Below are positions 26,026 to 62,077 of a stretch of DNA of 64,000 bases, one piece after another. Source of the DNA: an uncultured virus (IMG/VR IMGVR_UViG_3300033073_001410) (lineage: Duplodnaviria > Heunggongvirae > Uroviricota > Caudoviricetes); IMG/VR virus record IMGVR_UViG_3300033073_001410, positions 1 to 64,000 of that record; one strand, 5' to 3'. How positions within the stretch are numbered: position 1 is the stretch's first letter; the number at the start of each line of letters is the position of its first letter. A model generated the notes under the pieces. That model was given only the letters and a program-made list of their open reading frames with translations, ran no database searches and was not told where the DNA came from. The position numbers and the translations under genes were made by a program.

Positions 26026-26265
26026 ATGAAAAAATATTCAGAAGCGCAGGAACTAAATGAGATGAAATACGGACAACCTCTTTTCACTGAGAAAGATCGT
26101 ATGAAAGATCTATTGGTAGCAGCATCAGGTAACGATCAAAGAGTTTTGAATGATATAGTTAACTGTTTAACCGACGAGCAAATGAAGAAATGCTACGATA
26201 AACTTTCTAAAGTTTATGGTTACACAGGTAGCACTGGTCAAAAAGTAGTTCCACCTAGCCTATAA
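26026..26265 (+). CDS. Small hypothetical protein with CTS-like leader
   Basis: MKKYSEAQELNE N-terminus; late-type promoter upstream. Confidence 0.6.
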   Translation: MKKYSEAQELNEMKYGQPLFTEKDRMKDLLVAASGNDQRVLNDIVNCLTDEQMKKCYDKLSKVYGYTGSTGQKVVPPSL

Positions 26266-26271
26266 TTTTTA

Positions 26272-26982
26272 ATGAACCTAGTAGGTATAGATTTTTCAAT
26301 CAATTCCCCGGCATTTTGTTGCTTTAAGAATGGTGTTTACACGTGGGGATCTGTAACCAGATCCGATCGGTCTAAAGAATCACTCTTAAAAAATACCAAG
26401 AAACCTTATCATTGGCTAGATGCTGATGATAATTTTATTTTGGACTTTATCGACAAGGAGGATCTCCCATCAGACTACAGTGAGAGAGAAAGAATGAAAA
26501 TAGTGTACTTTTTAAGCGTTGTAGACAGCCTTTGGGATTCTATCAAGGGTGTAATGGGTAATTCACATTTTAGTGTCGCTATGGAGGGTTTAAGCTTCTC
26601 CTCGAATGGTAATGCGCTCATAGACATATCTATGGCTACGGCTTTATTAAGAGAACGAATAATTAAAGAAATAGGGGTCGAATCATTTTATGTTTTCTCC
26701 CCAACCAGCATAAAAAAGTTTGCATTAAAAGGTAATGCAAAAAAAGATGAGCTTTATGAAGCTCTATGTAATTTTAAGGAAGACGAAACAAATTTAGGAG
26801 TATTTACTAGAATGTTAGTATCTAACAAAGAGGAATGGATAACAAAGGCCAAGCAGGTCAACAAACCCATTGATGATATTGTGGATGCAACTTGGATTAA
26901 TTTGTATTTAAAAAAGGAATTAGAGGGAATTTATGGAATTAAGGGAAATCTTGAAAGTGAAACAGCTACTACGCCGATCTGA
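26272..26982 (+). CDS. RuvC-like (RNase H fold) Holliday junction resolvase
   Basis: VGIDFS, AMEG, PTSIKKFA..GNAKKDEL, DDIVDA motifs. Confidence 0.75.
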   Translation: MNLVGIDFSINSPAFCCFKNGVYTWGSVTRSDRSKESLLKNTKKPYHWLDADDNFILDFIDKEDLPSDYSERERMKIVYFLSVVDSLWDSIKGVMGNSHFSVAMEGLSFSSNGNALIDISMATALLRERIIKEIGVESFYVFSPTSIKKFALKGNAKKDELYEALCNFKEDETNLGVFTRMLVSNKEEWITKAKQVNKPIDDIVDATWINLYLKKELEGIYGIKGNLESETATTPI

Positions 26983-27142
26983 TAGCAATTGGATCGCTCT
27001 CATAAATAAAAAATCACAAAACATAATCAACTTTAGGGCCGGACCATAAATCCGATCCAATTTTCTGTGGGTTATCCGATAGCCATAAAAATCGGAACAA
27101 AAAGAAAAATTTGAATAAAAACTAAAATTAATTTAAAAAACA

Positions 27143-28117
27143 ATGAGCAATTTAGACATTTTTAATTTGGACGCAGAGTCTTTCGTAACAAAGACCAACC
27201 AAGCAGGAGGATCAAAAGATCTTGAATTTTACAAACCTTATCCAGAGGATGGGAAGGATGGAGTTTATAAATCTCTAATCAGATTTGTACCTAACCCAGA
27301 AAATCCAGCTAAATCAAAGATCCACAAATACTATGTGTATTTGAATGATCCAGTAAGCGGAAACGGATTTGCAGTTGACTGTCCATCCACGGTGGGCAAG
27401 AAATCAATTCTTAAGGATCTTTTCTGGAAATTGAAGAATTCGCATTCTGCAGCAGATCAGGAATTGGCAAAAGCATTCTCGAGAAAAGAGGATTTTTATT
27501 CTCTAGTTCAGATCGTACAGGATAAAAATAATCCAGATTTAGAGGGTAAGATCATGATTTTCAAATTCGGTAAGAAAATCAATGAAATGATCGAAGCTCA
27601 GCTTCAGCCTGAGTATGGTGATGCTTGCAATCCTTTCGACTTATTTGAGGGAAGAGAATTTGCTATTAGCGTTAGAAAAGTTGGTGAGTGGAACAACTAC
27701 GATTTATGTTCATTCGTAGGTGAGAGAACACCAATTAAGATTGAGGGTACACCGATGAAGAAGTCACAAGAGGATATGAACAAAATTCTCGAGTATCTAA
27801 ACAGTGGACCTAGAAACTTATCATCTTTTGATTACAAAGATTGGGACGATGAGGTAAACGAGAAAGTAATGGCTGTAATCAGAAATACAGTTCCTGAGCA
27901 AAGAATCGTGAACGAGATAGTAGGTGGAGTATCATCTGCTCCTTCTAAGCCAAATCCGGTTCAACAACCTAGCTACTCTGCTCCTTCATCATCTTCTCAG
28001 ATGCTAGAGGAAGTATCTAATACTAAGGTAGGTGGACAGACTCCAAGAGAAACCCCAGTAGAAACTCCATCTTCTTCTGCTGGATCTTCATTAGATGATC
28101 TTTACGCAGATCTATAA
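27143..28117 (+). CDS. Single-stranded DNA-binding protein (T4 gp32-like)
   Basis: LIRFVP, DCPST, GKIMIFKFGKKI, NPFDLFEG, WNNYD; acidic tail SSLDDLYADL. Confidence 0.85.
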   Translation: MSNLDIFNLDAESFVTKTNQAGGSKDLEFYKPYPEDGKDGVYKSLIRFVPNPENPAKSKIHKYYVYLNDPVSGNGFAVDCPSTVGKKSILKDLFWKLKNSHSAADQELAKAFSRKEDFYSLVQIVQDKNNPDLEGKIMIFKFGKKINEMIEAQLQPEYGDACNPFDLFEGREFAISVRKVGEWNNYDLCSFVGERTPIKIEGTPMKKSQEDMNKILEYLNSGPRNLSSFDYKDWDDEVNEKVMAVIRNTVPEQRIVNEIVGGVSSAPSKPNPVQQPSYSAPSSSSQMLEEVSNTKVGGQTPRETPVETPSSSAGSSLDDLYADL

Positions 28118-28129
28118 TAAAAACATAAC

Positions 28130-28163
28130 ATGGGGACTATTCATAGACTAGTCCCCATTTTTT
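28130..28163 (+). terminator. Rho-independent terminator
   Basis: ATGGGGACTA/TAGTCCCCAT stem followed by T-run after SSB. Confidence 0.8.
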
Positions 28164-28170
28164 ATCCCCT

Positions 28171-31475: not shown

Positions 31476-31483
31476 GATATATA
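31476..31483 (+). promoter_or_regulatory. Putative late promoter GATATATA
   Basis: Recurrent intergenic octamer. Confidence 0.55.
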
Positions 31484-31501: not shown

Positions 31502-32047
31502 ATGAGAATTAAAAAGTTTGACACTTTTGTATCGGAGAATTTAAACGAGGATGTTTCCCAATATAAAGGAAAGACCACATTTAGTAAGTGGCTTAGAGCC
31601 ATAGATGACCGGATTAAAACCGATGTGAATGACGCATCTTTCTATTCACGATATTCTGATCCTAGGACCGATAAATACGTTTCTGCAAATAAAGCTGCGG
31701 CTCTAATTCCTGGAGCATTTAGGCTTATTGCTGGAGCAGGTGCAGCGGTGGCTGATTTCTTTTCCAAAGGTGACAATAAAGACACAGTTTCTAAATATTC
31801 TAAAGAGGATCTAGCATCTAAAAAAGACGAGATTGTGAAAAAATGGGAGGAAGAGAATATAAAATCCGATTCTACCGAGGCAGACGCTGAAAAGTTCTAC
31901 AAATCAGGTGTACTAAAGGGTAAAAAGTTCTTTGGCCCTGAATACGATCCAGTAAAACCTAAAAACAAAGAGGAAGAGATCTATACCGATTACATAAATG
32001 ATGTAATGGAAAGGTACTATAAAAGAACATCGAAGCATGCCAGATAA
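31502..32047 (+). CDS. Hypothetical protein with CTS-like leader
   Basis: MRIKKFDTFVSENLNE N-terminus (ATG at 31502). Confidence 0.6.
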   Translation: MRIKKFDTFVSENLNEDVSQYKGKTTFSKWLRAIDDRIKTDVNDASFYSRYSDPRTDKYVSANKAAALIPGAFRLIAGAGAAVADFFSKGDNKDTVSKYSKEDLASKKDEIVKKWEEENIKSDSTEADAEKFYKSGVLKGKKFFGPEYDPVKPKNKEEEIYTDYINDVMERYYKRTSKHAR

Positions 32048-32966
32048 TCTGATGAATTTTTCTATATTCTCCAAGCTTTTTGAAGGTGGTAATGCTATAA
32101 AAACAGCTAGAAGTATTAGAGAAGATGAGTTTCCTAAAACAATGGATAGTATAAAATCAATACTTTTCCCAGTTCTTGGTATAGATCCCACAAAGGAAGG
32201 ATCTGAATATTTGGTAATAGGAAGCATAGGAAAGAAAAAAAATCCGGATGATACTTCTGGTGATCTTGATATCGGATATGACAGCAGTTGGTTTGCAAGA
32301 AAACATGGGGTTACACCTAAAGAAACCTCTGCTGAAGTTTATAGATTGATCTCAGAGTCTCTCCCTGAAAAATTGGGATTTAATCCCGAGGTCAACTACA
32401 TGAAAGGACTAAATATTGTAAGTTTAGGTTGGCCAATTCAAGAGGATCCAAATAAAGGTATAGTTCAGTTAGATTTAATCCCCGTTTCAAGTATGGAATG
32501 GGCCAAATTCATATACTATTCACCAAATTATAAGATATCCGAGAGCAAATATAAATCTGCACATAGAAACTGGCTTCTTGCTGCTATATTAGCATCAAGA
32601 AGACAAACATTAAAATCAGATCCAAGCGGACAAATAATGGACTACGACTCCCCTGTTTTGATGCTTAGTGATGGTCTATTCTGGCACACAAAATCTTATG
32701 CTAGTAAAATTAAGGATAGACTTAAGAATCCCAAAAAAGTTGAGGGAAGCGAAAGATTTATTACTAGAGATCCCCAGGAGTTTATAGATTTTACATTAGG
32801 TCCGGGATATTCTCAGGATGAGGTAAAAACTTTCGAACAAGTTCTGAGCATTATTAATGATCCGGAATTCGAACTATACGATAACCTGGAAGAGATTAAG
32901 GATAGGTTTGTAGAATATCTAAAAAGAACAGGATTAGAAATACCAGCCGAAATAAATCAGATTTAA
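32037..32966 (+). CDS. Pol-beta-superfamily nucleotidyltransferase
   Basis: IGSIGKK..SGDLDI and VQLDLI catalytic pattern (GS..DxD..D). Confidence 0.7.
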   Translation: MPDNLMNFSIFSKLFEGGNAIKTARSIREDEFPKTMDSIKSILFPVLGIDPTKEGSEYLVIGSIGKKKNPDDTSGDLDIGYDSSWFARKHGVTPKETSAEVYRLISESLPEKLGFNPEVNYMKGLNIVSLGWPIQEDPNKGIVQLDLIPVSSMEWAKFIYYSPNYKISESKYKSAHRNWLLAAILASRRQTLKSDPSGQIMDYDSPVLMLSDGLFWHTKSYASKIKDRLKNPKKVEGSERFITRDPQEFIDFTLGPGYSQDEVKTFEQVLSIINDPEFELYDNLEEIKDRFVEYLKRTGLEIPAEINQI

Positions 32967-33002: not shown

Positions 33003-35003
33003 ATGTCAGGAATAAGTCATCTATACGACATTTATAACAAGAAAGGAAAGGACTTTGTAGAGAAGCTCTTTAGCTCCTATGTGACCGTTAATGAAAAAAT
33101 GGACGGATCTGCATTTGTATTCGAGAGAGATCCGGAAACTGGCAAGTTTATCTTCTACAAGAGAGACCAGAGAAATCCAATAACTATGGTCGATCGAACT
33201 CTGATGAAATATTATGAGAAGCCTATAATTTATATTGAGTCTTTACCAGCTCATGTTATTAAACAAATCCCGAGAGGATGGAAATTTGGTCTGGAATATT
33301 TCGCAAACAGTAACCCTGTTGAGATAGCTTATGATAGAGTACCTAAGAATAATTTAATACTTTCTTATATAAGGCCCAAAGGAGATTCCGAAATTGACCA
33401 GATTACAGATAAGGAAAAACTTGATTCGTGGGCTGATTTATTAGGGATAGAAAAACCGCCTATTATTTTTCAAGGGGTTTTATCCAAAGAACAAAAAGAA
33501 CAAATATTAGATTTTCTTAGAACTCCGTTCAATGATTTAGTTAGCGAATATAAAACTAAGAGCTTTGTCAGATTTATTTTAGGTGTTCTTAATCCAGAGG
33601 TTCAATCGAGTGCACTTAATGATGATTTAGATAAGCCCATCGAGGGGATAGTATTTAGATTTAGCGCTGATCCGGAGAAAGAAGGTGAAATATTCACATC
33701 TAAAATGGTAGATCCAGTTTTCACTGAAATGGCTAAATCAAAAGCATCAAGAAGATCTGAGCAAAAGCCTAGTGATTTTTTAGGCATAACCATTCTGGAC
33801 GTCATGAATTTCATTTTAGATAAGGGTGTAGATACATTCAGAGTAAATGGTGACAGTGAAGATGAGAGATATATTTCTTTCATTTCAGATGTGTTCTCTA
33901 AATTCCTGAGTGAGTATGGATACAAATATAAGGGATCTGATTTTCAGGAGCCAGATTATTTGAAAAAGGACGAATTCAGATTAAATCGCGAAATGATCAA
34001 GGATCCACGAGTTTTAAAATGGATCGAAGAAGATGATTCGTACGAGTCTCTATTTAAGTTAATTCTTAATTCATTCAGAAAAATCAAAAAGAGAGCTGGA
34101 GGAATAATAACACCAGGAATAATTGACCAGTTCAATTTATTGGTTTCTGATATAGATCAATTAGTTAGAAAAAAGAAGACCGCTAAAGTTGTTGAATCTG
34201 AAATACCATCTTTCCTCGATTTTAAAAGAAAGAATGCTCCGGATACTAATGTTGATTATTTAACATTGGAAGGAGAGGAAGCTGATGAAAATTTCGAGGA
34301 CCATTTCTATTCGTATAATGATTTTATTACGGCTTTAGAAACCATAGATTCACAGGATAAACCAAAGGTTGATACTAAGAAAATCGACGACGTTTCGGTA
34401 AAGGTAAATGACAAAAATAAGCCTGCACAACTACAGAAAGTAAATCTAATAGTTGGTAGATTTCAGCCATTTCATAATGGTCATTTGAAAATGGTCGATA
34501 CGCTAATGGATAAAAATGGTTTACCCACTATTATAGCTGTTGTTCATCCGGGACATAATAAATCAGGAAACACTCCATTCACTCCAGAATTAGTGAATAA
34601 ATATATGGAGGGATTAACTAGGGAATTTCCACAAAAGATTCAGGGATACTTTATGGTTAATAGAGGACTTCTTGGACCTATTTGTAGTAGAGCGAAGGAA
34701 CTTGGATATTCTCCGGTTTCAATAGGAAGTGGTGAGGATAGATCGGAAGACTATAGAAAGCAGTTTGATTTTCTGAAGAAAATGGGGGGTGATTTCCCTG
34801 AATCTATAGAATTGATCGAAACGACAAGAAAACACAGCGGATCGGACATCAGAAATTATTTGGACGGCGAGGATTTTCTAGCATTTAAAAAATCTGTTCC
34901 TCCATCAATTTCTTCTTTCTATCAGCAATTAGTCTCTTCTAAAAAAGGAAGAGCTATAGCGGAAAGTCTTTCTGAAGGATTGGAAAATGACAAAAATAAA
35001 TAA
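33003..35003 (+). CDS. Fusion of ATP-dependent RNA-ligase-like nucleotidyltransferase domain and C-terminal HxGH cytidylyl/adenylyltransferase domain
   Basis: EKMDGS (motif I), FGLEYF (III), EGIVF (IV), SKMV (V); C-terminal GRFQPFHNGH, GEDR, SGSDIR. Confidence 0.7.
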   Translation: MSGISHLYDIYNKKGKDFVEKLFSSYVTVNEKMDGSAFVFERDPETGKFIFYKRDQRNPITMVDRTLMKYYEKPIIYIESLPAHVIKQIPRGWKFGLEYFANSNPVEIAYDRVPKNNLILSYIRPKGDSEIDQITDKEKLDSWADLLGIEKPPIIFQGVLSKEQKEQILDFLRTPFNDLVSEYKTKSFVRFILGVLNPEVQSSALNDDLDKPIEGIVFRFSADPEKEGEIFTSKMVDPVFTEMAKSKASRRSEQKPSDFLGITILDVMNFILDKGVDTFRVNGDSEDERYISFISDVFSKFLSEYGYKYKGSDFQEPDYLKKDEFRLNREMIKDPRVLKWIEEDDSYESLFKLILNSFRKIKKRAGGIITPGIIDQFNLLVSDIDQLVRKKKTAKVVESEIPSFLDFKRKNAPDTNVDYLTLEGEEADENFEDHFYSYNDFITALETIDSQDKPKVDTKKIDDVSVKVNDKNKPAQLQKVNLIVGRFQPFHNGHLKMVDTLMDKNGLPTIIAVVHPGHNKSGNTPFTPELVNKYMEGLTREFPQKIQGYFMVNRGLLGPICSRAKELGYSPVSIGSGEDRSEDYRKQFDFLKKMGGDFPESIELIETTRKHSGSDIRNYLDGEDFLAFKKSVPPSISSFYQQLVSSKKGRAIAESLSEGLENDKNK

Positions 35004-35009
35004 ACAGTA

Positions 35010-35552
35010 ATGAATAGATTCATAACAAATTTTAATGATTTTAGATTCTCGGTTAACGAGAGCGATGGGTTTGGAACATCCTCCTTCCTATTAAAGAAAG
35101 AATCTGACATTTATCACTATTTCTTTAATCTAGACAAAGAAAACGGTGAAACCAATGCCTATCACCTAATCATCGGTAAATATTCAGACAGAGAGGTGAT
35201 CGAAGGACCTAAGAATTCTTATTGTGTGTTAACAATAAATGAGATATCACCCGAAATCGTTGAAGATATAGCTGTTGATAAAGAGGATATTCCTAGAATG
35301 AATTCTGAAAAATTCAAAATGGGATCCGACGAGTTATCCAGACTGATGAAATATGTTTATAAATGTGTAAACGATTATCTCCAGATCAACCCGAAGGTAA
35401 TAAGAATCTATGACGAACTTCAAGATAATCTAGTCTATGATGGAAAGGGAAGCTACCTAGAGTATACGAAATCCATATCCATATCTGAACTTGGATCAAA
35501 TTGGGCTGTACAGGAGGGATCATCAAAAATGACAGTAATTATCAGTAGATAA
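35010..35552 (+). CDS. Hypothetical protein with CTS-like leader
   Basis: MNRFITNFNDFRFSVNE N-terminus. Confidence 0.6.
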   Translation: MNRFITNFNDFRFSVNESDGFGTSSFLLKKESDIYHYFFNLDKENGETNAYHLIIGKYSDREVIEGPKNSYCVLTINEISPEIVEDIAVDKEDIPRMNSEKFKMGSDELSRLMKYVYKCVNDYLQINPKVIRIYDELQDNLVYDGKGSYLEYTKSISISELGSNWAVQEGSSKMTVIISR

Positions 35553-36309: not shown

Positions 36310-36924
36310 ATGAAGAAATTATTAATAGTTATTTTTTCTGCAGTAATCCTATTTGGATGTGCTCATCATAGAGAACAAGTACTGCAGATACACCAAGGAC
36401 CATATGCCTTCTGTGGAGCTTCAGGAGCAGTACCCACCGGAAGGACCATTATTGTAGAGGGAAGAGAGTTTAAAGAGGGTTGTGCTATATGTCCAGTAAT
36501 GGATGGACCTTCAATTAACAATCTAGCTATTACAGGTGGAAGTCCACAATCACCGGATGGAACAGATAGCACCGTATGGTCTTTATTTTGGTATTTCGAT
36601 CCAGCTACTGATACTGTTCCTCAGTTCAATCCAGCAACACAAGCATGGGAATGGATGACGCCAGTAAATAGAGCATTCACAGTAAATACAGATTCTGCAA
36701 GTACTAGTATGAGTAACATGTTCTGTATGCCTTGCAAAATTTGGAAAGTTGAGAATGGAATAACCCTAGCTAAATGTTACGGTCCTCTGAATGAGGCTGC
36801 AGTTCCTCTCCGTGTTGCAATACCAGTTAAATCTGGAATGAAATCAATAACGCAAGCTAAGGATGGAGTTCCATATCCGGTCGGAACACCTATTCCAGTT
36901 ACTGATATGATAAAAAACAATTAA
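36310..36924 (+). CDS. Cys-rich lipoprotein
   Basis: MKKLLIVIFSAVILFG-C lipobox; CAIC and CMPC motifs. Confidence 0.65.
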   Translation: MKKLLIVIFSAVILFGCAHHREQVLQIHQGPYAFCGASGAVPTGRTIIVEGREFKEGCAICPVMDGPSINNLAITGGSPQSPDGTDSTVWSLFWYFDPATDTVPQFNPATQAWEWMTPVNRAFTVNTDSASTSMSNMFCMPCKIWKVENGITLAKCYGPLNEAAVPLRVAIPVKSGMKSITQAKDGVPYPVGTPIPVTDMIKNN

Positions 36925-37909: not shown

Positions 37910-37917
37910 GATATATA
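37910..37917 (+). promoter_or_regulatory. Putative late promoter GATATATA
   Basis: Recurrent octamer only 5 nt upstream of a GTG start. Confidence 0.5.
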
Positions 37918-37922
37918 GTATT

Positions 37923-38336
37923 GTGAAACACGTTGTAGATTTCGAGGAATATGATCCATCTGACGAGTATAAATCCGATTCTCGTAGATCCATTAATTTG
38001 GACAGAATTAGAAAATCTGTAGAATATAAGAGGATCATAGAAATGGGCTTTGATGAGGATACGTCTCATCAACAAGAGCTAAATAACACCATGAAGTTTA
38101 TCCGAACCAAACACAAGAAAAGGGAGAAGGGTCACGGAGACGTCTTTTACACAATTCACCCGACCGGAACAGTTCGTAGATATAATCCTATAAGATCAAA
38201 GGAAACTCCAGAGGGGAGTGGAAACGATATTAAAAAATTCTTAGATCCATTTAAGACCACAGCAGACTATAAAAAGGGATTAAATTACCTATGGCAGTAT
38301 CTTAAAAGGAAAGAAGAAAAGGGAGATTATAGATAA
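37923..38336 (+). CDS. Hypothetical protein with CTS-like leader
   Basis: MKHVVDFEEY N-terminus. Confidence 0.6.
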   Translation: MKHVVDFEEYDPSDEYKSDSRRSINLDRIRKSVEYKRIIEMGFDEDTSHQQELNNTMKFIRTKHKKREKGHGDVFYTIHPTGTVRRYNPIRSKETPEGSGNDIKKFLDPFKTTADYKKGLNYLWQYLKRKEEKGDYR

Positions 38337-39616: not shown

Positions 39617-40867
39617 ATGGCAAGACCAGTATTAAATTTCGCAGATTTCTTAATCGAGTCTGCAAGAATGATCAACGAGGGGTATAGCTTTAGTCAGGCT
39701 AAAGAGATACTTTCTCAATATATTAAAAAAGCAACAAAAGCTCAAGAAGGAGATATAACTTCAATTAAAACGGTTACTCCTGAGCAAATAGCTTTAATCG
39801 AAAGAATCGCAGGAAGTGTTTCGGAAGAAGCTGTTAAAGCTTTAGGTGATGCACTAGGAAATATGTTAAATGTTTCTTTGGATAATAAGAAGATGGAATT
39901 GGATGTGGAAAACACTGAGATAGCTATTAATAATCTTAAAGTTAGTAATGTAGTAGCTGGACAAGTATTTTGTGACGAGATTCCTACTACTTCAGTTAAG
40001 ACAGCAACACTCGCAGAAAATAAGACATCTTTAGAGGCACTTATCACAGCTATAAACTTGTACAATACAGAAGCAAGAAAAGATCAAAAATACTGGTCTC
40101 AGAAAAAAGAAGGTGCTGAATTAAAATGGAATAAGAAAGACGGTAATGTTGCTAATTCAGTAGAGGATAACCAGATTTTCATAACTAATGCAGATTCTAA
40201 GGTTGAGTGGAAGAAGAATACTTTTGCCAATAATATTACCCCATTAGCCGGTGGGATTGATGCTGGTTCAAATCCAAGTTCTGATGGATTAAAAGTAAAC
40301 CTAGTTTTATATGGTATTAAAAACGTAGCAGAAGGAGCGGGAGGGAAAATTTCTGTAAATGAGATCGTTCCTGTTACTATTAAAAAAGGTGGAGGTACGA
40401 CAGAAAAATCTGTTGATATCCAAGACAACGGGACTTTATTCGCAAAAGCTAAATCTGAATTATTAGAGAACGGTAAAAGAAACATATTTAATGCTATCCA
40501 AACCAACTTTACTTCAGTTAGCAGTGTAGAAGTAATCGGAGGGGCATCTAAAGAGGGTGACGAATCTTTCAACAAGAAGCTTTGTTTAGATAGAGCAAAT
40601 TCAGTAGCTGAATTCCTTAAAGAACTTATCCCTGGTGCTACTATCACGGCTTCTAAAGAAACAAATATTCAGCCTCTAGAAAGTACTGAAGATCTAAAAA
40701 CTTGGAGAAAAGTTACATTGAAAATCACTGGTACTTTAAGTGCAGTTGAACCAGCTCAGGAAGTTATACAATACGTTGCACAGAATAAGCAGATATCTTC
40801 AGATAGATATGACTTATATCAGATTACTCTTTGCTTCTACGCAGCACTAGATCAAGAAAATAAATAA
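39617..40867 (+). CDS. Protein with OmpA C-terminal-like peptidoglycan-binding domain and CTS-like leader
   Basis: LFAKAKSEL..VEVIGGASKEG..FNKKLCLDRANSVAEFL..WRKV; no signal peptide. Confidence 0.7.
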   Translation: MARPVLNFADFLIESARMINEGYSFSQAKEILSQYIKKATKAQEGDITSIKTVTPEQIALIERIAGSVSEEAVKALGDALGNMLNVSLDNKKMELDVENTEIAINNLKVSNVVAGQVFCDEIPTTSVKTATLAENKTSLEALITAINLYNTEARKDQKYWSQKKEGAELKWNKKDGNVANSVEDNQIFITNADSKVEWKKNTFANNITPLAGGIDAGSNPSSDGLKVNLVLYGIKNVAEGAGGKISVNEIVPVTIKKGGGTTEKSVDIQDNGTLFAKAKSELLENGKRNIFNAIQTNFTSVSSVEVIGGASKEGDESFNKKLCLDRANSVAEFLKELIPGATITASKETNIQPLESTEDLKTWRKVTLKITGTLSAVEPAQEVIQYVAQNKQISSDRYDLYQITLCFYAALDQENK

Positions 40868-41551: not shown

Positions 41552-41953
41552 ATGAAAATTAAGGATAGAGAGATTTTAATACAAGAGGATTATCTGAACG
41601 ATCCCTGGAAAATGTTAGTCTGCTGTATACTACTAAATCAAACAAACAATAAGCAGGTTAGACCGATTTTAAGCTCCGTATTTGATCTTATTCCGAATCC
41701 CATGTCTGCATCTGGGGTTGATGTCAAAGTGTTAGCAGAGGTCATAAAAACCACCGGATTTCAGAATGTAAAAGCTTCAAGGATTAAAAAGCTGAGTCAA
41801 AAGTGGACGGAAGGATTTTCTTCCGTTTCAGATCTTCCTGGCATAGGAAAATATGGAAATGATTCCTGGGAGATATTTATAAATAAAAAAATTGATATTA
41901 CTCCAACGGATAAAAAGTTGGCTAAGTATTTAGAGGATATCTCTATTTCTTAG
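41552..41953 (+). CDS. MBD4-like HhH DNA glycosylase (catalytic domain only)
   Basis: PWKMLVCCILLNQT, LPGIGKYGNDSWEIF and PTDKKLAKY parallel the MBD4 glycosylase domain; ATG at 41552. Confidence 0.75.
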   Translation: MKIKDREILIQEDYLNDPWKMLVCCILLNQTNNKQVRPILSSVFDLIPNPMSASGVDVKVLAEVIKTTGFQNVKASRIKKLSQKWTEGFSSVSDLPGIGKYGNDSWEIFINKKIDITPTDKKLAKYLEDISIS

Positions 41954-42245
41954 GTTTAGCTTTTTCTCTAAATGCTCCTTTAATATAATCGGTTACCTCG
42001 GATCCAGATCTTTTTTTCTCCGATAGGAATTTATTAAAAGCTTCGGATTTCCCCTCCTTGTCTAGAAACATGTTAATCTCAGCTGATTCGTACATGGCAT
42101 CAATCACTTCAGGCATCTGTGGATTTGCCGAAGTGTAATTTCTAGAATTTACTCTAATCTCACTACTTTGACCAGGAACGTCCACGCTACCAGGTGAATC
42201 TATCCATTCAAACAGGAATTTGTCGAAATTTTTTAAATTTTTCAT
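41943..42245 (-). CDS. Hypothetical protein with CTS-like leader
   Basis: MKNLKNFDKFLFE N-terminus; AATATATA variant promoter on minus strand at 42253-42260. Confidence 0.6.
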   Translation of the reverse strand: MKNLKNFDKFLFEWIDSPGSVDVPGQSSEIRVNSRNYTSANPQMPEVIDAMYESAEINMFLDKEGKSEAFNKFLSEKKRSGSEVTDYIKGAFREKAKPKK

Positions 42246-42315
42246 CTAATAGTATATATTCACCCGGAACTTAAGAAAGTCAGATGGATAGAAAAGATAC
42301 AAAAATCTCAATTTA

Positions 42316-43722: not shown

Positions 43723-43754
43723 CGTACTATGGCCGCCGATCCAGAGGGTCTTTT

Positions 43755-43762
43755 GATATATA
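43755..43762 (+). promoter_or_regulatory. Putative late promoter GATATATA within a hairpin
   Basis: Recurrent octamer flanked by GGGTCTTTT and AAAAAACCC. Confidence 0.5.
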
Positions 43763-43815
43763 AAAAACCCGGTGGGATTTAGGCCTAGACACAAACCTAG
43801 TCAAAAATCACAATT

Positions 43816-47831: not shown

Positions 47832-48458
47832 ATGGAGACATTAAAATATTTTAACCAATTTTTAAATGAACGAGAACTTCCCGATAGCCAAGGGGAAGTT
47901 CTTGTTATTTTAGGGGCACCCGGATCAGGGAAGGGAACCTTATCTAAGGTACTTCAGGACGAATACGGAATCCACCACATTTCAACTGGGGATCTTATAA
48001 GAAAATCAGAAGATGAAGAACTTAAAAAGATTATCGAGGGTGGTAATCTAGTCCCAGATTCGATGATGGTAAAAATGCTTAATAAAGAGCTGGAAAAAAT
48101 AGACGTTGCAAAGGGTATTATTTTTGACGGATTTCCTAGAACAATTAAGCAAGCTAAAAAATTAGATTCCATTTTGGGTAAAATGGGATTGGGATTAAAT
48201 CATGCTATATTTTTAGATCTTGACGAAGAAACAGCTAAGGAAAGAATTAGAGAAAGAGCTAAAAAGGAAGATCGTAAGGATGATACCAGCGATGAAATTA
48301 TAGAGAATAGATTTAAAGAATATCACGATAAAACTTTTCCTCTTTTAGATTTCTATAAGAGAAGTAGGAAACTTTTAAAGATAGATGCAGAAGGTGGTAA
48401 GGATAAGGTTCTAGCATCAGTGGTAGAAAAGTTAGGTCTCAAGAAGAAAAAGAATTAA
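47832..48458 (+). CDS. adk: Adenylate kinase (short LID) with CTS-like leader
   Basis: GAPGSGKGT, HISTGDLIR, LVPD, DGFPRT, R.DD. Confidence 0.92.
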   Translation: METLKYFNQFLNERELPDSQGEVLVILGAPGSGKGTLSKVLQDEYGIHHISTGDLIRKSEDEELKKIIEGGNLVPDSMMVKMLNKELEKIDVAKGIIFDGFPRTIKQAKKLDSILGKMGLGLNHAIFLDLDEETAKERIRERAKKEDRKDDTSDEIIENRFKEYHDKTFPLLDFYKRSRKLLKIDAEGGKDKVLASVVEKLGLKKKKN

Positions 48459-50439: not shown

Positions 50440-50447
50440 GATATATA
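50440..50447 (+). promoter_or_regulatory. Putative late promoter GATATATA
   Basis: Recurrent intergenic octamer. Confidence 0.6.
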
Positions 50448-50468: not shown

Positions 50469-51023
50469 ATGATACATCTTTTAGAATTTGAAGCATTCTC
50501 TGGTTTTTATCTTAATGAGAATGATATTAGAGGTGGTATTCCTATCTATAACGAAGACGTTTTCATGCAGAGCAATAACGCAAAGCCTGCCATGATGGTT
50601 AAGTCAACTGAACTTGTTTCCACTCTAACTAGATTATTGGAGGATCAAGAGAATGGAGATTTAGAAAGAATCATCGTTATCGCTGAAATCCCAACCCAAG
50701 GTAAAAATGCTCCTCAGTATGTAAGAGACGACGTTGCAGCAGAAAGAGATAGAATGGCTAAAAGAAAATACGCTCTATATGGGAGCAGAATAGAAAGAGC
50801 GGATAGACCTGAGGATGAGGAATACACTGACGCTATTAATATTTTCGTTGATTCCGAATTTATTGTTAAGGGTGTAATCAATAAATTAGGTAAAGACTAT
50901 ATTATAGCAATTCCTGACTCTAAGAAGAAGAAAGCTGAAGCTAGTGCTTCCGCTATGGAATACTACACAGTTTACATCGAGCCTAAACAGGTAGATGAGG
51001 TATTTTTTGTACCTTCAAAATAA
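50469..51023 (+). CDS. Hypothetical protein with CTS-like leader
   Basis: MIHLLEFEAFSGFYLNE N-terminus. Confidence 0.6.
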   Translation: MIHLLEFEAFSGFYLNENDIRGGIPIYNEDVFMQSNNAKPAMMVKSTELVSTLTRLLEDQENGDLERIIVIAEIPTQGKNAPQYVRDDVAAERDRMAKRKYALYGSRIERADRPEDEEYTDAINIFVDSEFIVKGVINKLGKDYIIAIPDSKKKKAEASASAMEYYTVYIEPKQVDEVFFVPSK

Positions 51024-58392: not shown

Positions 58393-59541
58393 ATGACCCA
58401 GGAAGAAATACTAGAAATAAAAGAAAGGATAGAAAGTCTTACCTCGCTCAAGAATGAGCTTAAGAATGAGGAACAGGCAATTAAGTTAACGATGAACTCC
58501 ATCTACGGAGCGATCGGGAACAACTGGTTTGTTTGCTTCAATCCTGACGTAGCAGAATCGGTAACGCTTCAGGGACAAGATTTAATAAAATATTCTGAGA
58601 AGATTCTACATAAGTACTTTCATGAGCACTGGCATCTTGATAAGGAGTTACATGAAAAGCTTGGTGTTACTGATGTTAAAAGGGTGATTAAACCTCTGGT
58701 AGTTTATGGAGATACTGATTCTAATTATGTTACATTCCAGGAAGTAGTGGATTCATGTAACTATCAGGGAGACGATAAAGAGCTTATCCTAAAGATAAAC
58801 GAATATCGATTAAATGATTACTTAAAGAAATGCTTCGATATTTACTCTAAAAAATGGAATACCGATAACTATCAGGATTTTGAGCTTGAAACTCTTTCTT
58901 ATAATGGTATATTCCTAGGTAAGAAAAAATATGTGGTTAACCTTGCTTATGATTCAGGTATACACACTGACGCCCTTTCTCAATTGAAATTCACAGGGGT
59001 GGAGATGATTAAAGGGGGTACACCTCCTTTTGTTAGAGAGAAACTTGTATATCTGACAAAGTTCATATTCTCAAAAGGTAGAAATTTTGACATTCGTGAG
59101 TTTGTTAAGGAGCTTAAGAATATAAAGAAGGACTTTAAAGTTCAGGAGCCCAAGAGTATTTCAGCTTCAGTGAATATCAATAACTACGAGAAGTTTATAC
59201 TTAATGACACTACTGGATTCGAGGTGGCTAAGGCATGTCCAATCCACGTAAGAGCATCAGGATACCATAATTATTTGCTAAATAATTCTAAATATAAAAG
59301 CAAATACTCTTTGATCAGAAGCTCAGAGAAAGTCAACTACTATTTCGTTAAAACTAAATCGATCGCAGATAACAACGTATTTGCTTATCCACAGGGGACA
59401 TATCCATATGAGTTTGCCCCGCCGATTGATTATGACGAGCAGTTTACTAAAACTATTCTCGATCCCATTAATAGATTCATCGAAGTCATGGGATATAATA
59501 AGATAAGTCCGAATCTATTCATGATTAATGCTCTTTTTTGA
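58393..59541 (+). CDS. Family B DNA polymerase, C-terminal half (motifs B and C, thumb)
   Basis: KLTMNSIYG, VTLQGQ, YGDTDS, KKKY, TGVE, PIHVRA. Confidence 0.92.
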   Translation: MTQEEILEIKERIESLTSLKNELKNEEQAIKLTMNSIYGAIGNNWFVCFNPDVAESVTLQGQDLIKYSEKILHKYFHEHWHLDKELHEKLGVTDVKRVIKPLVVYGDTDSNYVTFQEVVDSCNYQGDDKELILKINEYRLNDYLKKCFDIYSKKWNTDNYQDFELETLSYNGIFLGKKKYVVNLAYDSGIHTDALSQLKFTGVEMIKGGTPPFVREKLVYLTKFIFSKGRNFDIREFVKELKNIKKDFKVQEPKSISASVNINNYEKFILNDTTGFEVAKACPIHVRASGYHNYLLNNSKYKSKYSLIRSSEKVNYYFVKTKSIADNNVFAYPQGTYPYEFAPPIDYDEQFTKTILDPINRFIEVMGYNKISPNLFMINALF

Positions 59542-60021: not shown

Positions 60022-60036
60022 AATCCCTTCGATTGG

Positions 60037-60044
60037 GATATATA
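60037..60044 (+). promoter_or_regulatory. Putative late promoter GATATATA
   Basis: Recurrent octamer 21 nt upstream of ATG 60066. Confidence 0.6.
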
Positions 60045-60065
60045 AGAAGCAAAATAAATTACAAC

Positions 60066-61523
60066 ATGTCATCTAATAGAGTACTTGATTTTTTCTCCTA
60101 TATTAATGAATCTAAGGGGGAAACTACAAAAATAGTGGTTTTAACGGGGAACGTTAAAGGAAGTAAAACATCCAAATCCTTCGAAGAGGAATGTAAGAAG
60201 AGAAAAATTGAGTGTCATATAGTAGATGTTAATGATGTCATTTTAGAAAAGGCTTACAATGGTCACATCATTAAAACCGGAGAGGATCAGATTACGATAG
60301 ATCCTAATTCTACTGTGATAGTACCAAGAAGAGGGGTCTTAGAAAACTCATATACGAAGCAGGTGTTAACGTATTTAGAAGATGCTAGATACTTTACAGT
60401 TAATACTCTCGAATCTATGGAAGTGTGCGAGAATAAATACCTCACTTCTCAAGTTTTAGAGGAGAGCGGCTTACCAGTTCCTAGATGTGCATTAGTACCC
60501 AATGAGGATTTTTTAGACTCTGCATTGAAAGAAATAGGTGGTAAATTTCCGGTAGTTATGAAGCTTCTATCAGGTACTCAAGGTATTGGGGTTTCTATAG
60601 TTGATTCTTACTCTTCATTAAAATCGGTTTATCAAACGATTAGAAAGCTTGATGGAAATAATGAGATCCTGATTCAAGAGAAAATAGATTCGAATTTTGA
60701 CCTTAGAATCCAGGTAATAATTAAGAAATTTGATCCTTTGCAACCAGATCCAGATAACTGTATGATTCTGGGATCTATGAAGAGACAAGCTGTTAAAAAG
60801 GATTTTAGAACAAATTACTCTTTAGGTGGATCTGTTTCTAAATATAATATTTCTAAGGAAATAGAAGAAATAGCATGTAAGGCTGCAAATGCAGTTGGAT
60901 GTCACTGGTGTGGGGTTGATATAATGATAGACTCTAAAACTAAAAAACCTTACATCTTAGAGGTTAATTCATCTCCAGGAACCGAAGGTATATCACAGGC
61001 TATAGGTAAACCTATCGTGGATGATGTAATAGATTACCTGGTAGAGAAAAGCAATTGGTCTTATTCTAATCTGGAAGTTGGGTATTTAGAGACTTTAGAA
61101 ATTCCTGGATTAGGTTCAGTTGTAGCCAAATTCGATACTGGTAACGGAGCTAAATCATGCAGTATCCACTGTGATGAGGTAGAAGAAATAGACGGTAAAC
61201 TGAAATGGAAAATCGGTAAGAAAAACTTCGTAAGTGATATAGTTGGATATTCAGATGCTGAAGTAGGTAAAGATATCCACACCAGACCAATTATCGAGAT
61301 GGACATTTTATTCCACGGTGTATTGGTACCTGCAGTAAAAATATCTCCTGTCGACAGAACAGAGAAAAGCACACCATTCTTAGCAAATAGAGGATTTATG
61401 AGAAGACTTGGATTAATAGTTAATCCATATAAAGCCTTTGTAGTTTCGGAAGAGCCTAAGAAAGGATATGGTGCTGGTGCTTCAAAAGGAGAAGCCCACG
61501 CCGGAATTAAATTTGAAAAATAA
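60066..61523 (+). CDS. RimK-family ATP-grasp ligase fused to a C-terminal RimK-associated retropepsin-like (RimB-type) protease
   Basis: NKYLT, FPVVMK..GTQGIGV, LIQE, DFRTNYSLGG, GVDI, LEVNSSPG; then VGYLE..AKFDTGN..SIH..RP.I..DR..LANR. Confidence 0.85.
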   Translation: MSSNRVLDFFSYINESKGETTKIVVLTGNVKGSKTSKSFEEECKKRKIECHIVDVNDVILEKAYNGHIIKTGEDQITIDPNSTVIVPRRGVLENSYTKQVLTYLEDARYFTVNTLESMEVCENKYLTSQVLEESGLPVPRCALVPNEDFLDSALKEIGGKFPVVMKLLSGTQGIGVSIVDSYSSLKSVYQTIRKLDGNNEILIQEKIDSNFDLRIQVIIKKFDPLQPDPDNCMILGSMKRQAVKKDFRTNYSLGGSVSKYNISKEIEEIACKAANAVGCHWCGVDIMIDSKTKKPYILEVNSSPGTEGISQAIGKPIVDDVIDYLVEKSNWSYSNLEVGYLETLEIPGLGSVVAKFDTGNGAKSCSIHCDEVEEIDGKLKWKIGKKNFVSDIVGYSDAEVGKDIHTRPIIEMDILFHGVLVPAVKISPVDRTEKSTPFLANRGFMRRLGLIVNPYKAFVVSEEPKKGYGAGASKGEAHAGIKFEK

Positions 61524-61535
61524 CAAACAGATAAA

Positions 61536-61751
61536 ATGGAAAACCTAAAAGAGTTTGGTAGCATTAGCGAATCATCTAGCCAAGATGAAAAAACAGAAAA
61601 AATCCAAGTTCTTCTTTCCAAAGAAGATTTAACTGACTTGAGTAGAAAAATCTCCAAAGAAGCTCTTGCTAAAGGAGAAGCACCGGTTTCTATTTCTCAT
61701 TACGTGAGAAAATTGATTAGAAGAAACCTAGGGAAAACTACTGAGGATTAA
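61536..61751 (+). CDS. Ribbon-helix-helix-like DNA-binding protein
   Basis: KIQVLLSKEDL..L..SISHYVRKLI. Confidence 0.5.
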   Translation: MENLKEFGSISESSSQDEKTEKIQVLLSKEDLTDLSRKISKEALAKGEAPVSISHYVRKLIRRNLGKTTED

Positions 61752-61756
61752 TTTCT

Positions 61757-62077
61757 ATGCGACTGCTAATAGAATTTGACGATTACCTAGAAGATGATCT
61801 AGATCTGGGTGAGCCAGAAAAGGCAATGATTCGAAACTGGATACAGAAGTATGAAAAGTACTTCAATTTCCATAATAGTGGGGAATTCACTGATTCTATT
61901 GATCAGATAACAAAAGACTGTATAGAACAATTAGGAATCGATAAATCAAAAAGTGATGCAGTTCAAGATTACCTAGAAAGTCTATATACTCTTTCGGATG
62001 GACTATCAGTAGTGATGGCTCCTGGACCGGAATTACAATATACAAATATAGACCAAGTTCAGAGATTTCAATATTAA
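61757..62077 (+). CDS. Hypothetical protein with CTS-like leader
   Basis: MRLLIEFDDYLE N-terminus. Confidence 0.55.
   Translation: MRLLIEFDDYLEDDLDLGEPEKAMIRNWIQKYEKYFNFHNSGEFTDSIDQITKDCIEQLGIDKSKSDAVQDYLESLYTLSDGLSVVMAPGPELQYTNIDQVQRFQY

What the first reader, a model, noticed from the sequence alone, without database searches (positions are those of the whole stretch)
26026..62077. About 12 unrelated proteins share a T4 capsid-targeting-like N-terminal leader: a putative packaged and injected enzyme cargo
Seen: N-termini MKKYSEAQELNE (26026), MRIKKFDTFVSENLNE (31502), MPDNLMNFSIFSKLFE (NTase 32037), MNRFITNFNDFRFSVNE (35010), MKHVVDFEEY (37923), MARPVLNFADFLIESARMINE (OmpA-like 39617), MKNLKNFDKFLFE (42245, minus), METLKYFNQFLNE (Adk 47832), MIHLLEFEAFSGFYLNE (50469), MSSNRVLDFFSYINE (RimK 60066), MENLKEFGSISE (61536) and MRLLIEFDDYLE (61757). 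The consensus is roughly M-x(1-4)-[ILV]-x-x-[FY]-x-x-[FY]-..-[ILV]-[NFS]-E. About half sit right behind the GATATATA motif, and the replication genes lack the leader. Known: T4 internal proteins carry a ~10-aa capsid-targeting sequence (MKTYQEFIAE) that the prohead protease cleaves after [IL]-x-E. Inference: this phage loads an adenylate kinase, a RimK ligase-protease, a nucleotidyltransferase, an RHH-like DNA binder and a peptidoglycan-binding protein into the head for delivery at infection.
Basis: partly seen in the sequence, partly recalled or inferred. Interest (0 to 1): 0.8.

Follow-up and report, generated by a model that had tools for sequence, protein, structure and literature searches.

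The report
Head-loading tag on many phage proteins
A giant phage of Bacteroidota puts the same short N-terminal tag, built like phage T4's capsid-targeting sequence, on about thirty unrelated proteins including several enzymes, which most likely marks them for loading into the phage head and trimming by the head protease.

Summary
The window is part of a ~250-kb jumbo myophage (a 99.94% identical 250,353-bp record exists). All 12 listed N-termini carry a leader of the form [LIV]xx[FY]xx[FY]..[LIV]-N/x-E. Genome-wide, 31 of 317 proteins match against about 5 expected. A matrix trained on the window finds N-terminal copies in the rest of the genome. Two related genomes show the same excess; T4 and phage PTm1 do not.

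The leader is kept in orthologues with synonymous codon change, and it is an extension on Adk and the RimK-like ligase. The mature parts are unrelated.

The register aromatic(i), aromatic(i+3), aliphatic(i+4), x, Glu(i+6) equals T4's MKTYQEFIAE. The phage encodes a T4 gp21-type (S77) protease and a gp23-type capsid protein with an LNE|S site. Its protease-scaffold protein carries a 14-residue tandem repeat, 13 copies of which show the same 7-mer. Leader genes share the GATATATA promoter with structural genes.

Best reading: a T4-type capsid-targeting propeptide, here on about 10% of genes and including enzymes. Packaging, cleavage and injection are inferred; no virion data exist. It is a new variant of a known kind.

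The parts
26026..26265 (+). 79-aa protein; leader MKKYSEAQELNE (nt 26026-26061); weakest member in this genome
   Evidence: GATATATA at 26000. Orthologues read MKTFSDLKELNE and MKKFTDLKQLNE, with aromatic at position 4, Leu at 7 and LNE at 10-12.
31502..32047 (+). 181-aa protein of no family; leader MRIKKFDTFVSENLNE (nt 31502-31549)
   Evidence: GATATATA at 31476. Orthologues keep the leader.
32037..32966 (+). 309-aa protein, possible Pol-beta-type nucleotidyltransferase; leader MPDNLMNFSIFSKLFE (nt 32037-32084)
   Evidence: GS-x12-DLD signature, Atlas lead, no Pfam or PDB match. Orthologues keep the leader.
35010..35552 (+). 180-aa protein of no family; leader MNRFITNFNDFRFSVNE (nt 35010-35060)
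37923..38336 (+). 137-aa protein, GTG start; leader MKHVVDFEEYDPSDE (nt 37923-37967); atypical end, with no aliphatic residue at P3
   Evidence: GATATATA at 37910, only 5 nt before the start. Orthologues read MKNILSFKDYEPSEE and ..MKHLLDFKSYSPE.
39617..40867 (+). 416-aa protein with a weak OmpA-like C-terminal region; leader MARPVLNFADFLIE (nt 39617-39658), second site MINE at residue 21
   Evidence: OmpA E=4.9e-4, 20.8 bits, below the cut-off of 27.2. GATATATA at 39573. No orthologue in G002 or G005.
41943..42245 (-). 100-aa protein; leader MKNLKNFDKFLFE (nt 42207-42245, minus strand); variant promoter GAATATATA at 42253-42261
47832..48458 (+). Adenylate kinase, 208 aa; leader METLKYFNQFLNE (nt 47832-47870), then a 7-residue linker before the Adk fold
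   Evidence: PF00406 E=6e-40. Query residues 21-24 align to residues 2-4 of solved bacterial Adks. All 4 orthologues keep F..FLNE|RELPD. No GATATATA; the gene follows nrdA.
50469..51023 (+). 184-aa protein of no family; leader MIHLLEFEAFSGFYLNE (nt 50469-50519)
   Evidence: GATATATA at 50440.
60066..61523 (+). RimK-type ATP-grasp ligase, 485 aa, with an unassigned C-terminal 156 aa; leader MSSNRVLDFFSYINE (nt 60066-60110)
   Evidence: PF08443 E=5e-35. About 24-residue offset against solved RimK. Leader present in 38 of 38 related loci. GATATATA at 60037. C-terminal region has no Pfam match.
61536..61751 (+). 71-aa protein; leader MENLKEFGSISE (nt 61536-61571)
   Evidence: Orthologues read MENLKEFGKVSSKISE and MENLKPFKQVNE.
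61757..62077 (+). 106-aa protein; leader MRLLIEFDDYLE (nt 61757-61792)
26000..26007 (+). GATATATA promoter-like motif. Further copies before leader genes start at 31476, 37910, 39573, 50440 and 60037. Copies before other genes start at 4800, 18653, 36278, 38476 and 43755.
   Evidence: 12 copies on the + strand and 0 on the - strand of the contig. In G001 it lies within 60 nt upstream of 35 genes, including portal, protease, tail fibre and a 123-aa gene in the tail/baseplate block (not family-scanned). Leader x motif odds ratio 10.5, P=5e-7.

Best explanation
The leader is a capsid-targeting propeptide of the T4 type.

The proposed sequence of events is as follows.
1. An amphipathic N-terminal stretch of 12-18 residues, with two aromatic residues three apart, takes the protein into the scaffolding core of the assembling prohead.
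2. The phage's gp21-type (S77) prohead protease then cuts after the Glu of the closing [LIV]-N/x-E. The same protease cuts the major capsid protein at SLNE|S and chops the scaffold at its repeated YLAE|N sites.
3. The mature protein stays inside the filled head and is probably expelled into the next host together with the DNA.

The cargo is about 25-30 proteins in this 250-kb genome, 12 of them in the window. It includes:
- an adenylate kinase;
- a RimK-type ATP-grasp ligase;
- a poly(A)-polymerase/CCA-family enzyme;
- one or two Pol-beta-type nucleotidyltransferases;
- a phosphoribosyltransferase-domain protein;
- a CHAP-like protein and an OmpA-like cell-wall protein;
- head-module proteins next to the capsid gene.

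Shown here:
- the tag, its position and its excess over chance;
- its conservation at protein level;
- that it is an extension on known enzymes;
- the presence of the protease, capsid and scaffold genes with matching sites;
- co-occurrence with the structural-gene promoter.

Inferred:
- binding to the core, possibly because the tag imitates one scaffold repeat;
- cleavage;
- retention in the head and injection.
For: 1. Excess and N-terminal specificity. Matches are 13 of 74 and 31 of 317 against about 5 expected. In the hold-out test, 6 of the top 8 hits are N-terminal. Related genomes give 44 of 678 against 9.5 expected and 33 of 359 against 4.3. The same pattern gives 3 of 280 in T4 and 8 of 315 against 5.3 expected in PTm1.

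2. Protein-level selection. The leader is present in 38 of 38 RimK-like loci at 58-100% identity. These give 23 distinct nucleotide versions, with six Leu codons and both Asn, Glu and Phe codons, and P1' is only Ser or Ala. It is present in 4 of 4 Adk orthologues. Eleven of the 12 window proteins have orthologues in both G002 and G005, all with a leader. Codons also differ between leaders of one genome.

3. Extension. The Adk fold starts at residue 21-24. The RimK alignment is offset by about 24 residues.

4. Same register as T4.
- The T4 CTS is MKTYQEFIAE (passage in PMC8442874).
- Residues 4 and 7 serve targeting, residues 8 and 10 serve processing, and gp21 cuts after L/I-X-E (passages in PMC9026906).
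- Here FNQFLNE, FDKFLFE, FADFLIE, FFSYINE and others follow the same spacing.
- T4 ipII and ipIII read MKTYQEFIAE, and gp23 has FGSFLTE at residues 59-65.

5. Machinery in the same phage.
- PF03420 scores above its cut-off in 5 of 5 related records, including the 99.94% identical G001.
- phrog_207 head maturation protease, E=2e-39.
- PF07068 Gp23, E=2e-41.
- Two PF07230 portals.
- The protease begins MPTTQRLNE9, matching the 'LIE-9' of T4 gp21.

6. Matching sites. The capsid protein has ..HYHSLNE|SAG. This aligns with ..ALME|NYQ of phage PAU, whose capsid protein is 585 residues as encoded and 520 when mature by N-terminal sequencing (Table 1 of PMC5646251). The scaffold half of the protease protein holds 13 copies of [FYW]xx[FYW][LIVM]xE at exact 14-residue spacing. 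It has 26 [LIVM]xE sites in residues 251-673. Across the proteome this 7-mer occurs 47 times: 10 at N-termini, 13 in the scaffold and 24 elsewhere.

7. Co-regulation and location. GATATATA precedes the portal, protease and tail-fibre genes and a 123-aa gene in the tail/baseplate block (that last one was not family-scanned). It also precedes 13 of 28 leader genes against 22 of 289 others. Four to six leader genes lie directly around the capsid gene, and they do so syntenically in four relatives.

8. A parallel in a cultured relative. Eighteen of 298 PAU proteins begin MK[TS][LIV]xx[LM][YF]E. They include the GenBank-annotated 'scaffolding' and 'internal capsid protein'. A phosphoribosyltransferase-domain protein is tagged in both lineages.
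Against: - No virion proteome, N-terminal sequence or injection assay exists for this phage or its close relatives. None was found in the papers searched.
- Fifteen of 28 leader genes lack GATATATA within 60 nt. Adk sits at the end of the nrdB-nrdA block, which is not a typical place for a late virion gene.
- The capsid cleavage site shares only L-N-E with the leader, not the aromatic pair.
- Some leaders end atypically, for example PSDE at 37923.
- PTm1 has the same protease-scaffold fusion but shows no excess of this leader. In the one 25-kb stretch examined from each of LR756500 and Lak-B1, I saw no obvious run of leaders.
- A motif alone is weak for any single protein. In T4, a register-based pattern hits 13 of 280 N-termini, of which only ipII, ipIII and gp24 are annotated gp21 substrates or internal proteins. 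About 5 of the 31 hits here are expected by chance.
- From recall, an adenylate kinase or CCA-family enzyme has not been reported as phage head cargo.
Confidence: 0.7

Rival explanations
1. The tag is cut by the prohead protease and does bring proteins into the prohead, but they are core or scaffold helpers, or enzymes acting during assembly. They are degraded or expelled at maturation, or stay in the capsid, and are not delivered to the next host.
For: Several tagged proteins flank the capsid gene and are rich in [LIV]xE sites. One example is the 386-aa protein at G001 46508, with FIE|S, TNE|S and VNE|G in its first 45 residues. In T4 most core proteins are degraded and leave the head (passages in PMC9026906).
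Against: Folded enzymes with a single N-terminal site (Adk, RimK-like, the PolyA_pol family enzyme) look like T4 internal proteins and Alt, which are cut once and retained. The CHAP-like and OmpA-like cargo fits a role at cell entry.
Confidence: 0.15
2. The tag is a docking peptide for a hub that is not the capsid. Candidates are a sliding clamp (PIP-box-like), a replication or nucleotide-synthesis complex, or the phage's own DnaJ/Hsp20 chaperones. The closing Glu would then be incidental.
For: The pattern hydrophobic-x-x-aromatic-x-x-aromatic resembles clamp-binding peptides (recalled, not tested). Adk lies in the nucleotide-metabolism block. The phage encodes DnaJ and Hsp20.
Against: - The polymerase, helicase, primase, gp32-like and topoisomerase proteins lack the tag.
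- There is no conserved Gln.
- The tag sits on head-module proteins and on CHAP-like and OmpA-like proteins.
- The [LIV]-N-E end and a Ser/Ala P1' are conserved.
- The tag is linked to the structural-gene promoter.
Confidence: 0.1
3. There is no peptide function. The similarity reflects a nucleotide-level signal at the start of genes (a translation-initiation region or a recombination cassette carried with the promoter), or chance.
For: Half of the window genes carry the same promoter motif just upstream. The genome is AT-rich.
Against: - Codons at the conserved positions vary freely, both between leaders and between orthologues.
- Shuffles and internal windows give about 5 hits against 31 observed.
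- The hold-out test succeeds.
- PTm1, with similar gene-start composition, shows no excess.
Confidence: 0.03

Closest known systems
Capsid targeting sequence (CTS) of phage T4 internal proteins IPI-III and Alt, processed by prohead protease gp21
   Same: - A short N-terminal leader is shared by otherwise unrelated proteins.
- Hydrophobic or aromatic residues three apart are followed by aliphatic-x-Glu: T4 Y4, F7, I8, E10; here F(i), F(i+3), L(i+4), E(i+6).
- Both have an S77 protease, a gp23 capsid and a gp20 portal.
   Different: - The leader here is 12-18 residues, with 3-5 residues before the first aromatic.
- There is often a 2-5 residue insert before the cleavage triplet.
- Asn is strongly preferred at P2.
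- About 25-40 tagged proteins per genome, against a handful in T4.
- The cargo includes recognisable enzymes.
- Nothing here is shown by experiment.
Sphingomonas (Sphingobacterium) phage PAU: proteins beginning MK[TS][LIV]xx[LM][YF]E, among them the GenBank-annotated 'scaffolding' gp152 and 'internal capsid protein' gp154
   Same: - Same phage lineage by structural proteins and the same head module.
- Eighteen of 298 proteins are tagged, clustered near the head genes.
- A phosphoribosyltransferase-domain protein is tagged in both.
- The PAU capsid protein is cut at about residue 65 (PMC5646251 Table 1).
   Different: - The PAU tag is nearly uniform and closer to T4's own (MKT...).
- Its cargo is mostly small proteins of no family.
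- I found no paper describing the PAU tag. The PAU genome paper itself was not in the library.
Propeptide-bearing ejection and inner-body proteins of phiKZ, 201phi2-1 and SPN3US
   Same: A gp21-related protease cuts after Glu in a three-residue motif. Many head proteins are processed and ejected (passages in PMC9026906 and PMC5694885).
   Different: Those propeptides are mostly over 100 residues. The motif is S/A-x-E. There is no common short leader.
PIP-box and other clamp-binding peptides
   Same: A short peptide with spaced hydrophobic and aromatic residues at a protein terminus (recalled).
   Different: There is no Gln. The tag is not on replication proteins. It ends in a conserved protease-type site and occurs on head-module and cell-wall proteins.

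Membership tests
T4-type capsid targeting sequence / gp21-processed head cargo | A short N-terminal leader shared by proteins that are otherwise unrelated | tested here: met
   31 of 317 against about 5 expected. No BLASTP similarity between 32 mature parts.
T4-type capsid targeting sequence / gp21-processed head cargo | The leader ends in the protease motif, aliphatic-x-Glu | tested here: met
   In 141 loose matches from three genomes, P3 is L, I or V in 105, P2 is Asn in 47, and P1' is mostly Ser, Ala or Asn. The site is invariant in the RimK-like orthologues. One window member (37923) ends PSDE.
T4-type capsid targeting sequence / gp21-processed head cargo | Targeting residues three apart, directly before the cleavage triplet (T4 positions 4 and 7) | tested here: met
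   [FYW]xx[FYW][LIVM]xE occurs at 10 N-termini against about 2 expected. Other leaders carry a 1-5 residue insert.
T4-type capsid targeting sequence / gp21-processed head cargo | The phage encodes a gp21/S77 prohead protease, with capsid and scaffold substrates bearing the same motif | tested here: met
   PF03420 scores above its cut-off in 5 of 5 records. The capsid protein has SLNE|S. The scaffold carries 13 YxxYLAE-type repeats. These genes are not on the window's own 73.5-kb fragment.
T4-type capsid targeting sequence / gp21-processed head cargo | The leader is sufficient to encapsidate a foreign protein | not testable with these tools
   This needs a leader-GFP packaging experiment.
T4-type capsid targeting sequence / gp21-processed head cargo | The proteins are present in virions with the leader removed, and are ejected on infection | not testable with these tools
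   No proteome was found. The only related data are the N-terminal sequence of the PAU capsid protein.
Clamp-binding (PIP-like) motif | Conserved Gln, and presence on polymerase, ligase or nuclease partners of the clamp | tested here: not met
   No Gln column. Replication proteins lack the tag. The definition of the motif is recalled.
Adenylate kinase (PF00406) | Family match over the whole domain, with a P-loop | tested here: met
   E=6e-40 over residues 26-178. GAPGSGKGT aligns to solved Adks.
RimK-type ATP-grasp ligase (PF08443) | Family match over the ATP-grasp domain | tested here: met
   E=5e-35 over residues 122-325. Solved RimK E=1e-26. The C-terminal 156 residues are unassigned.
Pol-beta-type nucleotidyltransferase (for the protein at 32037) | Family match, or the hG[GS]-x9-13-DxD signature | tested here: inconclusive
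   No Pfam or PDB match. The signature GS-x12-DLD is present. An Atlas cluster with PF01909 on 33% of members ranks 29th.

The most novel reading that the evidence does not exclude
A clade of jumbo Bacteroidota phages devotes about a tenth of its genes to tagged head cargo. It delivers a ready-made enzyme kit with its DNA: adenylate kinase, an ATP-grasp protein ligase, nucleotidyltransferases including a CCA/poly(A)-family enzyme, a phosphoribosyltransferase-domain protein and cell-wall enzymes.

The tag is a single copy of the scaffold's own 14-residue repeat unit. Cargo would therefore co-assemble with the scaffold and be freed by the same cut that dismantles it. That would make the tag a portable loading signal for any protein.
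Probability: 0.35. Interest if true: 0.8.

Novelty: new variant of a known kind. Interest (0 to 1): 0.62.

Why it matters
Protein delivery by phage heads is well studied only in T4 and in a few phiKZ-like phages. If this reading holds, the T4 loading signal works in a distant lineage of very large phages related to PAU and, more remotely, to the Lak megaphages, and on a far larger scale.

The cargo list then becomes a sequence-readable catalogue of what these phages need in the first seconds of infection, including metabolic and RNA- or protein-modifying enzymes not known as head cargo.

The reading also suggests how the signal works, namely by imitating a scaffold repeat. It offers a short tag that could be tested for loading foreign proteins into Bacteroidota phages.

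Tried and rejected
- **Complex prediction.** Nothing was folded.
- **Structure prediction.** A structure of Adk with its leader was requested, but the tool was not accepting jobs.
- **Own fragment.** It has no PF03420 match. The head genes had to be read from the near-identical record G001.
- **DNA search.** A search of the phage collection found only ribonucleotide reductase matches at 66-70% identity.
- **Earlier notes of this scan.** None for this genome.
- **Literature.** No virion proteome was found for PTm1, MA9V-1 or MaF61. The PTm1 paper is not in the library, and MA9V-1 has only an SDS gel. The hit for 'capsid targeting sequence' in PMC13326640 is only a reference-list entry.
- **Paralogy of 32037.** It is not a paralogue of the NTP_transf_2 protein at G001 39097 (BLASTP E=0.028).
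- **More distant relatives.** One 25-kb stretch around the capsid gene of LR756500 and of Lak-B1 (read with TAG as sense) showed no obvious run of leaders. Whole genomes were not examined.
- **tRNA genes.** None in the window.
- **DNA ligase.** The ligase at G001 31926 matched the loose pattern, but its family alignment starts at residue 2, so it was treated as a chance hit.

Full report
**What the window is.** The window is the first 64 kb of a 73.5-kb linear virus fragment with 35-37% G+C. CheckV rates the fragment 27% complete. It matches positions 79,990-153,509 of a 250,353-bp IMG/VR record, here called G001, at 99.94% identity. G001 is rated 92% complete.

The window's left 26 kb encodes tail proteins: a tail tube (phrog_45), collagen-like fibres and very large proteins of no family. 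The right part encodes T4-style replication and nucleotide genes. These are gp32-like, primase, helicase, a split family-B polymerase, type II topoisomerase and ribonucleotide reductase.

By structural proteins, the nearest named relatives are an uncultured 462-kb phage, Flavobacterium phage MaF61, Chryseobacterium MA9V-1/2, Tenacibaculum PTm1/PTm5/pT24, phage PAU and the Lak megaphages.

Within the contig, 13 of 74 proteins have [LIVM]xxFxx[FYILV] in the first 16 residues, against 2.2 expected from internal positions. Eleven of the 13 are listed proteins, and two are a lipoprotein signal and a membrane helix.

In G001, a composite pattern hits 31 of 317 N-termini. Internal windows give 5.4 expected, and 1000 shuffles give 5.1 +/- 2.2 with a maximum of 14. 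Because I wrote the patterns after seeing the data, I also ran a hold-out test. A matrix from the 11 window leaders was scanned over the 236 proteins outside the window. Six of the 8 best hits and 6 of the best 30 lie within the first 12 residues, where only 3.4% of positions lie. A seventh hit follows an internal Met that is probably the true start.

Counts with the same pattern in other genomes:

| Genome | Matches | Expected |
|---|---|---|
| G002 (related) | 44 of 678 | 9.5 |
| G005 (related) | 33 of 359 | 4.3 |
| T4 | 3 of 280 | not computed |
| PTm1 | 8 of 315 | 5.3 |

The mature parts of 32 tagged proteins share no BLASTP similarity.

**Selection acts on the peptide.** All 38 loci encoding the RimK-like protein (58-100% identity) keep [VIL]-L-[DN]-F-x-x-[FY]-[LI]-N-E-[AS]. 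Among 23 distinct nucleotide versions, Leu uses six codons, and Asn, Glu and Phe use both of theirs, while the two residues between the aromatics vary freely. All four Adk orthologues keep F-x-x-F-L-N-E|RELPD. Eleven of the 12 window proteins have orthologues in G002 and G005, each with a leader. The OmpA-like protein has none. The weakest listed case, 26026, reads MKTFSDLKELNE and MKKFTDLKQLNE in the relatives. Codons also differ between leaders within one genome.

**The leader is an add-on.** Residues 21-24 of the phage Adk align with residues 2-4 of solved bacterial adenylate kinases. The RimK-like protein is offset by about 24 residues against solved RimK. A cut after the Glu would leave 6-8 residues before the first strand of either fold.

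**The tag has the T4 register.**
- The T4 capsid targeting sequence is MKTYQEFIAE (passage in PMC8442874).
- Residues 4 and 7 matter for targeting and residues 8 and 10 for processing. gp21 cuts after L/I-X-E (passages in PMC9026906).
- I read ipII and ipIII from the T4 record, and both begin with that sequence.
- The T4 capsid protein has FGSFLTE at residues 59-65. I recall that position as its maturation site.
- The tight leaders here follow the same spacing: FNQFLNE, FDKFLFE, FADFLIE, FFSYINE, FCEFINE, FQRYLNE, YSDFVNE.
- Others insert 1-5 residues before the [LIV]-N-E.

**The matching machinery is in the same phage.** G001 and four relatives each have a PF03420 (gp21-type, S77) match above the curated cut-off. 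The G001 head module contains:
- two gp20-type portals;
- a 673-residue protease protein (phrog_207, E=2e-39);
- a gp23-type capsid protein (PF07068, E=2e-41).

The capsid protein reads ..HYHSLNE|SAGAY. This aligns with ..ALME|NYQ of PAU and ..IINE|SYG of PTm1. The PAU capsid protein is 585 residues as encoded and 520 when mature by N-terminal sequencing (Table 1 of PMC5646251). That is within one residue of the LME64 site, and I could not resolve the one-residue difference. The protease begins MPTTQRLNE9, invariant in five genomes. This parallels the 'LIE-9' noted for T4 gp21.

**The scaffold carries the same 7-mer.** Residues 297-485 of the protease protein are a tandem array of a 14-residue unit, Y-S-x-Y-L-A-E-N-L-D-x-x-I-x (42-nt period). 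Thirteen units match [FYW]xx[FYW][LIVM]xE at exact spacing, and one further unit is degenerate. Residues 251-673 hold 26 [LIVM]xE sites.

In the whole proteome that 7-mer occurs 47 times: 10 at N-termini, 13 in this array and 24 elsewhere. I infer that the leader imitates one scaffold unit, joins the core through it, and is removed by the cut that dismantles the scaffold. This step is not shown. T4 gp22 has no such 7-mer. PTm1 has a different repeat with LSE sites and no leader excess.

**Regulation and location.** GATATATA occurs 12 times on the coding strand of the contig and never on the other. In G001 the counts are 37 and 8, with about 18 expected per strand from base composition. It lies within 60 nt upstream of 35 genes. 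These include a portal, the protease, a tail fibre and several genes of the tail/baseplate block, which I did not family-scan. Thirteen of 28 leader genes have it, against 22 of 289 others (odds ratio 10.5, P=5e-7).

Tagged genes flank the capsid gene, at G001 46508, 47674, 48560, 53425 and 55738, with a nucleotidyltransferase at 39097. They do so syntenically in four relatives.

Outside the window, the tag also sits on:
- a PolyA_pol-family enzyme (E=5e-37);
- a CHAP-like protein (E=7e-5, below the cut-off);
- a phosphoribosyltransferase-domain protein.

**A cultured parallel.** In PAU, 18 of 298 predicted proteins begin MK[TS][LIV]xx[LM][YF]E, mostly near the head genes. They include the proteins annotated 'scaffolding' and 'internal capsid protein' in GenBank. 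One of them has a phosphoribosyltransferase domain, as here. The PAU protease ends ..KKLYES.., which is the leader's own triplet.

I found no paper describing either tag set. I searched 'capsid targeting sequence' (21 papers), 'capsid targeting' with 'jumbo' (5), and 'phage PAU' with 'internal' (11), and read only listings and selected passages.

**What speaks against the reading, or limits it.**
- There are no virion or injection data.
- Fifteen of 28 leader genes lack the promoter motif. Adk sits behind nrdA.
- The capsid site shares only L-N-E with the leader.
- 37923 ends PSDE, and its GTG start lies only 5 nt after the promoter motif.
- A register pattern applied to T4 hits 13 of 280 N-termini, of which only ipII, ipIII and gp24 are annotated as internal or gp21-cleaved. 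So the motif alone does not prove any single case. About 5 of the 31 hits are expected by chance.

**Verdict.** The leader is most likely a T4-type capsid-targeting propeptide (about 0.7). Delivery of the enzymes into the next host is plausible by analogy with T4 internal proteins and Alt, but it is untested.

The main rivals are cleavage without delivery, a docking peptide for another hub, and a nucleotide-level signal. The last is largely excluded.

The mechanism is of a known kind. The scale, the enzyme cargo and the likeness to the scaffold repeat are new.

Noticed in passing
L047:5559-6125 (G001 43559-44125; outside the window): The prohead protease is fused to a scaffold-like half. That half holds a tandem array of a 14-residue unit (YSxYLAENLDxxIx). 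Thirteen units match the [FYW]xx[FYW][LIVM]xE site and one further unit is degenerate. One relative has an extra unit and three have one fewer.
   Followed up: partly
L046:9572-11251 and L046:11273-12880 (G001): Two tandem T4 gp20-type portal genes (PF07230, E=6e-58 and 1e-67) with similar N-termini. Only the first has GATATATA upstream.
   Followed up: no
window 42316-43722 and 58393-59541: The family-B DNA polymerase is split into two genes 14.7 kb apart: exonuclease plus the start of the polymerase domain, and the rest of the polymerase domain.
   Followed up: no
window 33003-35003: A 666-aa protein with a weak RNA-ligase-like N-terminal part and a cytidylyltransferase-like C-terminal part (Pfam E about 1e-4 each; phrog_395 E=1e-9).
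   Followed up: no
window 62126-63556: A 476-aa DUF2828/DUF7788 protein (phrog_850 'RNA-binding protein', E=6e-153), directly after the last two leader genes.
   Followed up: no
window 37910-37925: The GATATATA motif ends only 5 nt before the GTG start of the 137-aa leader protein, against 18-36 nt for the other genes. That leaves little or no room for a 5' untranslated leader if the motif is a promoter.
   Followed up: no
L137:167-331 (T4 gene 61.1): The 54-aa hypothetical protein gp61.1 of T4 begins MKTFKEFIKE. That is close to the capsid targeting sequence of ipII and ipIII.
   Followed up: no
L124 and L123 (G005 262-270 kb): A run of eight or more small genes at the end of relative G005 all start with the leader (for example MENLKVYENFVNE and MKHIELYENFLNE). 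This recalls the variable internal-protein clusters of T-even phages.
   Followed up: no
L068:4281-5021 (PAU gp151): The PAU prohead protease has KLYES near its C-terminus. This is the same triplet that ends the PAU leader, suggesting C-terminal self-processing as described for T4 gp21 and phiKZ gp175.
   Followed up: no
window 36310-36924: A 204-aa protein with a lipoprotein-type signal (…LFGC) sits behind a GATATATA motif. It matched the loose leader pattern only through its hydrophobic signal.
   Followed up: no
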